Source: Escherichia coli
GTDB lineage: Bacteria; Pseudomonadota; Gammaproteobacteria; Enterobacterales; Enterobacteriaceae
Direction: 5' to 3' (one strand)
NCBI RefSeq assembly: GCF_030013205.1
Contig: NZ_CP122648.1
DNA: 64,000 nucleotides
A program made the translations under genes and the position numbers. Positions 61,974 through 62,871 of this stretch are shown piece after piece. Numbering within the stretch: the stretch's first letter is position 1; each line of letters begins with the position of its first letter. The notes below the pieces were generated by a model that had not been told where the DNA came from, searched no databases, and saw only the letters and a list, made by a program, of their open reading frames with translations.

Positions 61974-62871
61974 TTATCGCCCCGTAGTGGATATCAGAAA
62001 ATCAATCAGGGCCTTCACTCTTTTCGTTTTACCCGCGTTTTTGGGGTAATAGAGATACACTGGCGGGTAGGTTTTCCAGTAGCTCTCCATCACCGGAATA
62101 AAGCGCTCCCTGTCCGGCTGTAACTGCCAGACAGGCTCAAACAAGCGCCCAATTCCCAGCCCGTTACGGATCCCGTCTGCCATAACGTCAATATCGTTGC
62201 TGATTAACTGCCCCGGCATCTCAACGGTCAACTGCTCACCGCGATCGTTCAGGAGCAGCGGAAGGATGCGGTTGTTGGTGATAAAACGGTAACCAATCAG
62301 CTGGTGATGACAGAGATCTGCCGGCACTTCAGGCGTTCCATGTCGGGAGAGATACGCTGAGAATGCATATAATCCTTCACGAAACGGTTTCATTAACGGT
62401 CGGGCCCCCCCCTCCCTCAAGAATATCGCCAAAACGGATCCCCAGATCAAAACGCTCTTTGATGATATTCACGGTACCGTCGTAGACCGAAATTTCTAAC
62501 TGTATACCCGGATATTGCTGACAGAATTCTGCCATCGCAGGCTTAAGAATTAACAGGTAGGCAAAACGCGAGAGCGTAATTCGCACCATCCCTGAGGGCT
62601 CCTGATGCTGGTCGCGAATGCTTTCAAGTGAGTTTTCCAGCGACTCCACCGCCGCAGCGGTCTGTTCCAGCAATAATTGACCGGTTTCCGTCAGCTCTAT
62701 ACGGCGGGTCGTACGCACAAAAAGCGGATGACCGATATACTCTTCCAGCAGATTTAGTGCATTGCTGACGGAGGGAGGCGTAATTTCCAGTTTCCTTGCG
62801 GCTGCCGAAATATTGCCCTCCCGCGCAATGCTCTGGAAGATGCGAATCTGGTTATAAAGAGCGTTATTCAT
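61974..62871 (-). pseudogene. LysR-family transcriptional regulator split by a +1 frameshift inside a G8 (coding-strand) homopolymer
   Basis: N-terminal HTH and inducer-domain start in ORF 62377..62871; remainder in ORF 61974..62450 in a different frame; frames switch at the C8 run at 62405-62412 (plus strand). Confidence 0.7.

What the first reader, a model, noticed from the sequence alone, without database searches (positions are those of the whole stretch)
61974..62871. LysR regulator interrupted exactly at an 8-nt G homopolymer: phase-variable switch, fixed pseudogene or homopolymer sequencing error
The N-terminal (HTH) and C-terminal (effector domain) halves of a LysR-type regulator lie in two frames that change within the C8 run at 62405-62412 (G8 on the coding strand, in the context GAGGGAGGGGGGGGCCC). 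Removing one G would give a single ORF of about 300 aa reading ...RFGDILEGGGARPLMKPFREGLYAF.... Homopolymers of this length are slipped-strand hotspots, so the regulator and its divergent target genes could be switchable; the same tract is also a classic site of assembly error.
Basis: seen in the sequence. Interest (0 to 1): 0.5.

Follow-up and report, generated by a model that had tools for sequence, protein, structure and literature searches.

The report
Frameshifted LysR gene at unstable poly-G
A LysR-type regulator gene in a pig-pathogenic E. coli is broken by a run of eight G's that arose recently in this lineage and changes length (7 to 11 G's) between near-identical strains, which makes it a real mutational hot spot but most likely a decaying gene rather than an evolved on/off switch.

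Summary
C8 lies at 62405-62412 (G8 on the coding strand) and splits a LysR regulator gene (61974-62871, minus strand) into two frames. G7 restores a 298-aa ORF and G10 a 299-aa ORF.

The window is a perfect match to E. coli ETEC4079 (NZ_CP122643.1), an R9.4.1 nanopore-only assembly in which PGAP already marks the gene "frameshifted".

About 437 of 456 complete E. coli genomes with this region have no pure G run there. They carry an in-frame 10-nt allele, GGGGTGGTGG (Val155-Val156, also found in Klebsiella, Serratia and other orthologues) or GGGGGGGTGG.

In the swine ST1/O139:H1 lineage both T's became G. The resulting run is G7, G8, G9, G10 or G11 in near-identical genomes, including short-read and hybrid assemblies. 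G9 (out of frame) dominates, and roughly 20% of alleles are in frame.

The window's G8 recurs in a draft of the same haplotype, probably short-read, so it is probably real. The gene would also be out of frame if the true length were G9.

The in-frame run alleles replace two conserved strand residues with Gly. Other genes of the regulated island are also broken.

Verdict: a real, recently born slippage hot spot in a decaying regulator. An adaptive switch is not excluded but is unlikely.

The parts
61974..62871 (-). LysR-type transcriptional regulator gene, interrupted by a frameshift. In the source record it is pseudogene QDW55_RS12900 of NZ_CP122643.1.
   Evidence: ORFs. Repair gives 298 or 299 aa. 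PGAP marks it 'frameshifted'. Pfam HTH_1 and LysR_substrate are recorded on both fragments and on intact alleles.
62405..62412 (-). G8 homopolymer on the coding strand (C8 on +). It is the site of the frame change and the hypervariable tract (G7-G11 in the lineage).
   Evidence: Wild-type alleles at the same place are GGGGTGGTGG or GGGGGGGTGG.
62377..62871 (-). N-terminal reading frame, 164 aa. It holds the HTH, the linker helix and the first part of the effector domain, followed by 8 out-of-frame residues (PTVNETVS).
   Evidence: The AF2 model of the intact protein places helices 3-89 and strands up to 147 before the break.
61974..62393 (-). C-terminal frame holding the rest of the effector domain. 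Gene callers report it as a 139-aa ORF starting MKPFREGLYAF.
   Evidence: (P0031, 95 contigs).
62872..63007 (.). Divergent intergenic region between the LysR gene and the target operon. It contains a candidate LysR box TTAGGTACAGTCTAA (T-N11-A dyad) at 62904-62918. The lineage SNP at 62907 lies inside it.
   Evidence: Read directly from the sequence. SNP. The simple sigma-70 scan found nothing in this region. The box is an inference, not a test.
63008..63319 (+). First gene of the divergent operon: a 102/103-aa protein of unknown function (WP_001221046.1).
   Evidence: No NCBIfam match. No Pfam hit on record.
63328..64000 (+). Second gene of the divergent operon: a DJ-1/PfpI-family (type 1 glutamine amidotransferase-like) protein, cut by the window end.
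   Evidence: Weak NCBIfam matches to HchA/PfpI, below cut-off. PF01965.
62752..62752 (-). Non-synonymous SNP (Lys40 to Asn) that marks the window's sub-lineage.

Best explanation
This is a real frameshift in a LysR-type regulator, at a poly-G tract that was born recently in the swine-pathogenic E. coli ST1 (O139:H1-related) lineage.

How it works:
1. In most E. coli and in other Enterobacterales, codons 155-156 are GTG GTG (Val-Val) inside GGGGTGGTGG.
2. In this lineage both T's became G, which fused three short G blocks into a G10 run. The same run extension happened independently in a human-associated lineage.
3. A run of this length slips during replication. The lineage now carries G7, G8, G9, G10 and G11. 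G9 is the commonest and G8 is found in the window's sub-lineage.
4. G8 is out of frame. The cell can make only a 164-aa fragment (HTH, linker, and the start of the effector domain). This cannot form a normal effector-responsive LysR tetramer, so the divergent operon (unknown 103-aa protein, DJ-1/PfpI, aldo/keto reductases and so on) has presumably lost its activator.
5. Slippage can restore the frame (G7, G10). Those proteins carry Gly in place of two conserved hydrophobic strand residues and are probably impaired.

The variation therefore looks like a by-product of a mutational hot spot in a gene and island under relaxed selection, not an evolved switch.

Shown: the tract, the frames, the allele series, the length polymorphism, the conservation of Val-Val, and the decay of neighbouring genes. 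Inferred: the slippage mechanism, the loss of function, the regulatory target, and the absence of selection.
For: The tract and the gene:
- Tract and frames are as described.
- The window equals ETEC4079, where PGAP annotates a frameshifted pseudogene.

Alleles in complete genomes (456 carry the region):
- G8 in 11, G9 in 2, G7 in 1 and G11 in 3.
- One G5TGG and one G8TGG.
- About 437 carry a 10-nt in-frame non-run allele, and none carries pure G10.

Alleles in the exact-sequence protein census, which covers draft assemblies:
- G9 N-terminal fragment: 61 + 33 contigs.
- G10 full length: 20 + 2 contigs.
- G7: 3 contigs.
- G8 in the window's Asn40 background: 1-2 contigs.
- G11: at least 5.
- The DNA was checked for each allele.

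Recurrence:
- Flanking haplotypes show G9 and G10 on both the Lys40 and the Asn40 backgrounds, and 2 to 4 different run lengths on three of the four flanking haplotypes.
- This means at least 6 length changes, against about 5 substitutions in 3.5 kb of flank.

The window's own G8:
- Its haplotype (Asn40 plus 62907G) has G8 in ETEC4079, in K_EC180 and in ERR9829667/GCA_943790555. The last has no difference from the window over 3.1 kb and was built by two assemblers.

Conservation and structure:
- Klebsiella, Serratia, Dickeya, Pantoea and Pasteurellaceae orthologues keep V/M at 155 and V/I at 156, with A157 invariant.
- AF2 (pLDDT 86.9) puts residues 155-161 in a beta strand.

Independent birth of G10:
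- It also arose on the human-type background (140C, Ser).

Island decay in the lineage:
- A 13-bp deletion in the carboxymuconolactone decarboxylase gene.
- A T3-to-T2 frameshift in the NAD(P)H oxidoreductase gene, also present in the Illumina+PacBio hybrid W13-16.

Literature: indel rates in E. coli rise exponentially with run length (PMC8510543).
Against: - The window comes from an R9.4.1 nanopore-only assembly (Bonito, Trycycler, medaka; PMC10151945). This chemistry leaves homopolymer indels in consensus sequences (PMC9262707).
- Run length correlates with technology. All 11 nanopore-only genomes of the lineage read G8 or G7, on two haplotypes, whereas Illumina-backed assemblies of the Lys40 haplotype mostly read G9. 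The exact length in some assemblies, possibly including the window, is therefore uncertain.
- Against the hybrid W13-16, the window is shorter at both of the 2 long homopolymers (of 26) that differ.
- About 20% of lineage alleles are in frame, and frame-restoring alleles recur. A pure one-way pseudogene model does not predict that.
- No expression or functional data exist for any allele.
- The regulatory link to the divergent operon rests on gene arrangement and a candidate box only.
Confidence: 0.62

Rival explanations
1. Adaptive phase-variable switch (contingency locus). The poly-G tract is kept because stochastic ON/OFF switching of the regulator, and hence of the divergent detoxification-like operon, benefits the pig pathogen.
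For: - In-frame (G7, G10) and out-of-frame (G8, G9, G11) lengths coexist in a very shallow lineage.
- G9 and G10 occur on both the Lys40 and the Asn40 haplotypes, so changes recur.
- The sister isolates ETEC6333 and ETEC6334 differ only at the tract across 40 kb.
- G10 arose independently in a second lineage.
Against: - The tract is absent from about 437 of 456 complete E. coli genomes with the gene and from all orthologues in other genera.
- It was made by replacing two conserved strand residues with Gly, so the 'ON' protein is probably impaired.
- Roughly 75-80% of lineage alleles are OFF. That is not far from the two thirds expected if run length drifted neutrally (my inference).
- Other genes of the island are broken by non-repeat lesions.
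- The ETEC6333/6334 difference comes from nanopore-only data.
- No within-culture heterogeneity has been shown.
Confidence: 0.12
2. The exact length in the window is a sequencing error, but the gene is still out of frame. The true tract in ETEC4079 would be G9, the commonest allele, under-called to G8 by the R9.4.1 consensus.
For: - The assembly is nanopore-only, and R9.4.1 consensus sequences keep homopolymer indels.
- All 11 nanopore-only lineage genomes read G8 or G7, while hybrid and short-read assemblies of the Lys40 haplotype read mostly G9.
- The window is shorter than the hybrid W13-16 at both discordant homopolymers.
Against: - The draft ERR9829667/GCA_943790555 has exactly the window's haplotype and reads G8 with two different assemblers. 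A same-batch draft of the neighbouring haplotype reads G9.
- The window agrees with two hybrid assemblies at every other homopolymer in 25 kb, including a G7 run.
Confidence: 0.18
3. Pure assembly artefact. The true tract in this strain is in frame (G10 or G7) and the gene is intact.
For: - The data are nanopore-only.
- In-frame alleles do exist in the lineage.
Against: - It would need an error of 2 bases, or of 1 base in the unusual direction.
- The same haplotype reads G8 in an independent draft, probably short-read, and in K_EC180.
- Out-of-frame G9 is the majority allele in short-read data.
Confidence: 0.05
4. Recoding. Transcriptional slippage or ribosomal frameshifting on the G run restores some full-length protein, so the gene still works as written.
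For: None from the tools. Long homopolymers can cause RNA polymerase slippage in E. coli (my own knowledge; best documented for A/T runs).
Against: - The run is not conserved, because every orthologue outside the lineage encodes the protein in one frame without a run.
- Run lengths in the lineage fall in all three frames.
- PGAP treats the gene as a pseudogene.
Confidence: 0.03

Closest known systems
Polymorphic homopolymeric tracts in Bordetella pertussis genes (tcfA, bapC, BP3651; Gogol et al. 2007, PMC1891110), and the classical C-run frameshift in the regulator gene bvgS (my own knowledge)
   Same: - A G/C homopolymer inside a coding sequence.
- Tract length differs among strains of a highly clonal pathogen.
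- Frameshifts switch the product on and off.
- In bvgS the affected gene is a regulator, so a whole regulon follows.
   Different: - In Bordetella, variation within single cultures and effects on expression were measured. Here only differences between assemblies are seen.
- The E. coli tract is lineage-specific and was made by replacing conserved residues.
- E. coli is not known to rely on such tracts for phase variation (my own knowledge).
Reversible frameshifts in the glpK 7C homopolymer of Mycobacterium tuberculosis (bioRxiv 10.1101/717272, listed; I read only the title and abstract)
   Same: A G/C homopolymer in an ordinary, non-surface gene acts as a mutational hot spot that inactivates and restores the gene.
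   Different: - For glpK, reversibility and a selectable phenotype (drug tolerance) were shown, and the tract is conserved in the species.
- Here no phenotype is known, and the tract is new to one lineage.
Ordinary homopolymer-frameshift pseudogenes in E. coli strains, such as ylbE, gatC and glpR in K-12 stocks (my own knowledge)
   Same: A single-base indel in a short run disrupts a non-essential gene. Annotation pipelines flag the gene as 'frameshifted'.
   Different: - Here the run is much longer (8-11) and was itself newly created by substitutions.
- It shows at least five length states within one clone.
LysR-type regulators of the CrgA/YafC-like subgroup (PDB 3hhg CrgA, 3mz1)
   Same: - HTH_1 plus LysR_substrate architecture of about 300 aa, divergently transcribed from the presumed target.
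- Best solved relatives are 3mz1 (E 3e-32) and 3hhg (E 5e-28).
- The best NCBIfam match is YafC.
   Different: - The score is far below the YafC equivalog cut-off (163 against 470 bits), so it is not YafC.
- The effector and the regulon are unknown.
- The window copy is frameshifted.

Membership tests
LysR-type transcriptional regulator (LTTR) | N-terminal winged HTH (Pfam HTH_1, PF00126) | tested here: met
   PF00126 is recorded on the 164-aa fragment and on the intact alleles. AF2 shows helices 3-46.
LysR-type transcriptional regulator (LTTR) | C-terminal effector-binding domain (Pfam LysR_substrate, PF03466) | tested here: met
   PF03466 is recorded on both fragments and on the intact alleles. 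PDB relatives align over residues 8-298.
LysR-type transcriptional regulator (LTTR) | One contiguous ORF of about 300 aa | tested here: not met
   The window allele G8 is split into 164-aa and 139/158-aa frames. Orthologues and the G7 and G10 alleles are contiguous at 298-299 aa.
LysR-type transcriptional regulator (LTTR) | Divergent target gene with a T-N11-A binding box in the shared promoter region | tested here: inconclusive
   The divergent arrangement is present. A candidate dyad TTAGGTACAGTCTAA lies at 62904-62918. There is no binding or expression evidence, and the promoter scan found nothing there.
Slipped-strand phase-variable (contingency) locus | Simple repeat inside the ORF, long enough to slip | tested here: met
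   G8 at 62405-62412.
Slipped-strand phase-variable (contingency) locus | Repeat length differs among closely related strains | tested here: met
   G7, G8, G9, G10 and G11 occur in genomes that differ by 10 or fewer SNPs per 25 kb.
Slipped-strand phase-variable (contingency) locus | Reversible switching, with both ON and OFF lengths arising repeatedly | tested here: inconclusive
   G9 and G10 are both found on two haplotypes, so changes recur. The direction of change, and therefore true reversion, cannot be told from these data.
Slipped-strand phase-variable (contingency) locus | High-frequency switching visible within one culture | not testable with these tools
   There is no access to reads. 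The only hint is ETEC6333 (G7) against ETEC6334 (G8), both nanopore-only assemblies.
Slipped-strand phase-variable (contingency) locus | The ON state encodes a functional product | tested here: inconclusive
   The in-frame run alleles put Gly-Gly (G10) or a single Gly with one residue lost (G7) in place of V155-V156. Those positions are V/M and V/I in all 29 homologues and start a predicted strand. No functional test was possible.
Slipped-strand phase-variable (contingency) locus | The tract is maintained across the species or related species | tested here: not met
   There is no pure G run in about 437 of 456 complete E. coli genomes with the gene, nor in orthologues from other genera.
Fixed pseudogene | The same disabling lesion is shared by the whole clade | tested here: not met
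   Tract length varies, and about 20% of lineage alleles are in frame.
Fixed pseudogene | Signs of relaxed selection in the gene and its neighbourhood | tested here: met
   - Conserved Val-Val was replaced.
- Both lineage SNPs in the gene are non-synonymous (Ser to Phe, Lys40 to Asn).
- The CMD gene has a 13-bp deletion and the NAD(P)H oxidoreductase gene a frameshift.
The numbers are small.
Homopolymer assembly artefact | The sequence comes from an error-prone technology without polishing | tested here: met
   The window is a perfect match to ETEC4079, which was assembled from R9.4.1 reads only.
Homopolymer assembly artefact | The length is contradicted by accurate data from the same genotype | tested here: not met
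   The draft ERR9829667/GCA_943790555 of the identical haplotype also reads G8. Reads from ETEC4079 itself could not be examined.

The most novel reading that the evidence does not exclude
The data may catch the birth of a contingency locus in E. coli. T-to-G substitutions next to short G blocks (GGGGTGGTGG to G7TGG to G10) have built a slippery poly-G tract in a LysR regulator at least twice independently. In the swine ST1 clone the tract would now switch the regulator, and a detoxification-like operon, on and off at a rate useful to the pathogen.
Probability: 0.12. Interest if true: 0.55.

Novelty: new member of a known kind. Interest (0 to 1): 0.3.

Why it matters
Practical value:
- It is a worked example of how to judge a "frameshifted" gene in a nanopore-only genome. 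The frameshift is real, but the exact run length depends on the technology.
- Run length at this site could serve as a fast-evolving marker within the ST1/O139:H1 edema-disease clone.

Biological value:
- It documents step by step how a homopolymer is born. Two T-to-G changes fused short G blocks, and this happened independently in two lineages.
- The new run then immediately became a frameshift hot spot.

If the tract did act as a switch, it would be an unusual case of repeat-mediated phase variation of a regulator in E. coli. The evidence favours decay of an accessory island instead.

Tried and rejected
- Calibrating nanopore accuracy with the T7 run at 5731-5737, which is T9 in the hybrid W13-16. 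The run is polymorphic across more than 2000 E. coli genomes, so the search was uninformative.
- A simple sigma-70 and terminator scan of 61850-63100. It found nothing in the divergent intergenic region.
- A literature search for the Japanese strains EC556, EC571 and EC581, to learn how they were sequenced. No relevant paper turned up, so the technology behind the G11 complete genomes is unknown. G11 is, however, also seen in four other assemblies.
- A search for a specific NCBIfam family. Only sub-threshold YafC/GcvA-like matches appeared, and the 103-aa protein matched nothing.
- The first multiple alignment of the flanks was spoiled by two loci with divergent flanks. I redid it pairwise.
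- 'G7 is the ancestral intact gene': rejected, because the ancestor is GGGGTGGTGG.
- 'The two halves are separate genes': rejected, because the orthologues are contiguous.
- Counts of the Lys40 G8-type and G11-type N-terminal fragments cannot be used raw. The same peptides are produced by the human-lineage alleles G5TGG and G8TGG. I had to check the DNA of each place.

Full report
**1. Observation.** The + strand has C8 at 62405-62412, which is G8 on the coding strand in the context GAGGGAGGGGGGGGCCC. It is the only G/C run of 8 or more in the window. Two minus-strand ORFs meet there in different frames:
- 62377-62871, 164 aa, starting MNNALYNQIRIF...
- 61974-62450, 158 aa.

Adding two G's gives 299 aa. 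Nothing else in the gene is broken. A C8/G8 run is not improbable by composition: shuffles give 1.09 per 64 kb. The case therefore rests on comparison with related genomes, not on the run itself.

**2. Source and annotation.** Window 39001-64000 is a perfect 25,000/25,000 match to E. coli ETEC4079, NZ_CP122643.1. The window corresponds to record positions 2527729-2591728. PGAP annotates the gene there as a frameshifted pseudogene, QDW55_RS12900. That genome and its Belgian and Dutch sister genomes were assembled from ONT R9.4.1 reads only. The pipeline was Bonito 0.4.0, Trycycler and medaka, with no short-read polishing (PMC10151945). R9.4.1 consensus sequences are known to keep homopolymer indels that break genes (PMC9262707).

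**3. What the gene is.**
- Both halves carry the LysR signatures: PF00126 HTH_1 and PF03466 LysR_substrate.
- The nearest solved relatives are 3mz1 and the CrgA structure 3hhg.
- The best NCBIfam model is YafC, but at 163 bits against a cut-off of 470, so the gene is an unnamed LTTR.
- The gene sits in an accessory island between hipBA and a yneL remnant. It is divergently transcribed from a 102/103-aa protein of unknown function, a DJ-1/PfpI protein, aldo/keto reductases, an amidohydrolase (fragmented even in strains with the intact regulator), an NAD(P)H oxidoreductase, a quinol monooxygenase and a carboxymuconolactone decarboxylase.
- The 1.1-kb query across the gene found matches in 483 of 5426 complete E. 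coli genomes.
- Intact 299-aa orthologues occur in Klebsiella, Serratia, Dickeya, Erwinia, Pantoea and more distant taxa.
- A T-N11-A dyad, TTAGGTACAGTCTAA, lies at 62904-62918 in the shared intergenic region. It is only a candidate binding box.

**4. The tract is new to one lineage.** Coding-strand alleles found at the site:

| Allele | Encodes | Where found |
|---|---|---|
| GGGGTGGTGG | EGGVVA | Many E. coli, at least 1000 contigs; the same Val-Val in Klebsiella |
| GGGGGGGTGG | EGGGVA | At least 1000 contigs, e.g. strain 7/2 |
| G8TGG and G5TGG | frameshifted | Offshoots of the allele above, in AR_0067 and Nord122 |
| Pure G run | varies with length | Genomes that also carry a Ser-to-Phe change; all those with known hosts came from pigs or wild boar, ST1/O139:H1 and related ETEC/STEC |

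An allele that combines the Phe change with the un-run tract exists in three short-read assemblies. The pure G10 also arose independently on the human-type background (140C, Ser), on 10-15 contigs. T-to-G changes next to the G blocks are therefore recurrent. This fits misalignment ("dislocation") mutagenesis, which is my inference from general knowledge.

**5. Length polymorphism.** Among 456 complete genomes with the region:
- G8 in 11: K_EC180 plus ten nanopore-only ETEC genomes.
- G9 in 2: the French O139:H1 strains W13-16 and P15-25, assembled by Unicycler from Illumina plus PacBio (PMC8798679).
- G7 in 1: ETEC6333.
- G11 in 3: Japanese swine strains.
- Pure G10 in none.

Exact-sequence look-ups in the 15-billion-protein collection, with the DNA checked, extend this to draft assemblies:

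| Allele | Frame | Count |
|---|---|---|
| G9 | out | 61 contigs (Lys40 background; 71 index blocks, all 24 contigs read are of the swine type) plus 33 contigs (Asn40) |
| G10 | in | 20 + 2 contigs |
| G7 | in | 3 contigs |
| G11 | out | at least 5 |
| G8 | out | 1-2 contigs (Asn40), at least 1 (Lys40) |

Roughly 20% of lineage alleles are in frame.

**6. Recurrence.** Markers in 3.5 kb of flank define four haplotypes:

| Haplotype | Markers | Run lengths seen |
|---|---|---|
| H0 | Lys40 | G7, G8, G9, G10 |
| H1 | H0 plus a change at 61614 | G10, G11 |
| H2 | Asn40 | G9, G10 |
| H3 | Asn40 plus 62907G; the window's haplotype | G8 only |

G10 is on H0, H1 and H2, so it is the likely founder of the run. 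G9 and G10 both occur on the Lys40 and Asn40 backgrounds, so the tract changed repeatedly. That makes at least 6 length changes, without counting the differences seen only in nanopore-only assemblies. The same sample shows about 5 substitutions in 3.5 kb of flank. By simple arithmetic the tract mutates about three orders of magnitude faster than an average base. This matches the exponential dependence of indel rate on run length in E. coli (PMC8510543).

**7. Is the window's G8 real?**

For:
- The draft assembly GCA_943790555.1 and the independent Logan assembly of ERR9829667 are identical to the window over 3.1 kb, including both H3 markers, and both read G8.
- A draft from the same submission batch, on haplotype H2, reads G9.
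- The window agrees with two hybrid assemblies and EC556 at every other homopolymer in 25 kb, including a G7 run. K_EC180, by contrast, has four homopolymer under-calls.

Against:
- All eleven nanopore-only genomes read G8 or G7 on two haplotypes, while Illumina-backed H0 genomes mostly read G9.
- P15-25 (G9), ETEC6334 (G8) and ETEC6333 (G7) share a 5-bp insertion marker.
- Over 61.8 kb the window differs from W13-16 at 2 of 26 long homopolymers and is the shorter one both times.

One reading fits all of this: the R9.4.1 consensus saturates near 8 for G runs. On that reading the window's G8 is right, and some H0 nanopore genomes really carry G9.

My estimates are as follows. G8 is correct with probability about 0.75. 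The strain is out of frame (G8 or G9) with probability about 0.9. An in-frame truth has probability about 0.05.

**8. Switch or decay?** Points favouring decay:
- The run is absent outside the lineage.
- It was created by replacing V155 and V156. These are V/M and V/I in all 29 homologues down to 57% identity, they sit next to the invariant A157, and they form the start of strand 155-161 in an AF2 model with pLDDT 86.9. The in-frame G10 and G7 proteins are therefore probably impaired.
- Both lineage SNPs in the gene are non-synonymous.
- Other island genes are broken by lesions that are not long homopolymer runs: a 13-bp deletion in the decarboxylase gene, and a T3-to-T2 frameshift in the oxidoreductase gene that is also present in a hybrid assembly.
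- The in-frame share of about 20% is not far from the one third expected under neutral drift of run length (my inference).

Points favouring a switch:
- Recurrent changes and coexisting frames.
- One pair of sister isolates differs only at the tract, although both are nanopore-only assemblies.

I put the adaptive-switch reading at about 0.12.

**9. Consequence in this window (inferred).**
- The G8 allele ends after residue 156 plus eight out-of-frame residues.
- The product keeps the HTH and the linker helix but loses most of the effector domain.
- It should not form an inducer-responsive LTTR tetramer.
- The divergent operon starting at 63008 has therefore probably lost its activator.
- Whether the fragment still binds DNA is unknown.

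**10. Novelty.** The frameshift itself is already flagged in RefSeq. One full-text search for homopolymeric-tract phase variation in E. coli LysR genes returned nothing on this gene. I therefore treat two things as undescribed, as far as I could check:
- The stepwise and repeated birth of the run.
- Its G7-G11 polymorphism in the ST1 clone.

It is a new member of a known kind, the homopolymer frameshift hot spot, as in Bordetella HPTs (PMC1891110).

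Noticed in passing
window 54985-59777: The ECSE_1600-family autotransporter gene is annotated as frameshifted. It is 4793 nt here against an intact 5421 nt in strain 118UI. It contains the G7 run at 55670-55676, which reads G6 in K_EC180.
   Followed up: partly
window 61715-61721: The 5-bp unit CTTTC between hipA and the LysR gene varies in copy number within the lineage. P15-25, ETEC6333 and ETEC6334 have one extra copy. I used it as a haplotype marker.
   Followed up: partly
window 5731-5737: The T7 run is T9 in the hybrid assembly W13-16. 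The run is polymorphic across more than 2000 E. coli genomes, so it could be either a real difference or a nanopore under-call.
   Followed up: partly
window 22252-22259: The window has one more copy of an 8-bp unit (GGTTATTG) than W13-16.
   Followed up: no
window about 9957-9966: W13-16 carries an IS66-family insertion of about 2.7 kb in the Qin-like prophage remnant at this point. The window lacks it.
   Followed up: no
window 62907: A sub-lineage SNP (A to G on the + strand) lies inside the candidate LysR box. It turns TTAAGTACAGTCTAA into the more symmetrical TTAGGTACAGTCTAA. It is found only on the haplotype that carries G8.
   Followed up: partly
L048 36394 and 39088 (ETEC4079, downstream of the window end): Other island genes are broken in the swine lineage. 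The carboxymuconolactone decarboxylase gene has a 13-bp deletion in all swine genomes examined. The NAD(P)H oxidoreductase gene has a T3-to-T2 frameshift in the Lys40 sub-lineage, including the hybrid W13-16, but is intact in the window's strain.
   Followed up: yes
L006, L014, L020-L031, L053-L058 (human-associated E. coli): The same site is unstable in another lineage. G7TGG has given G8TGG, G5TGG and an independent pure G10. Several G5TGG genomes also share a split DJ-1/PfpI gene (pieces of 123 and 89 aa).
   Followed up: partly
L002 1-824 (ETEC4068) and ETEC4075: In two lineage genomes an ISEc23 (IS66-like) element has truncated hipA just upstream of the LysR gene.
   Followed up: no
window 60197-61576: The mechanical ORF for hipA is 459 aa, starting at 60197. 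The annotated HipA is 440 aa, starting at 60254. hipB and hipA are intact.
   Followed up: no
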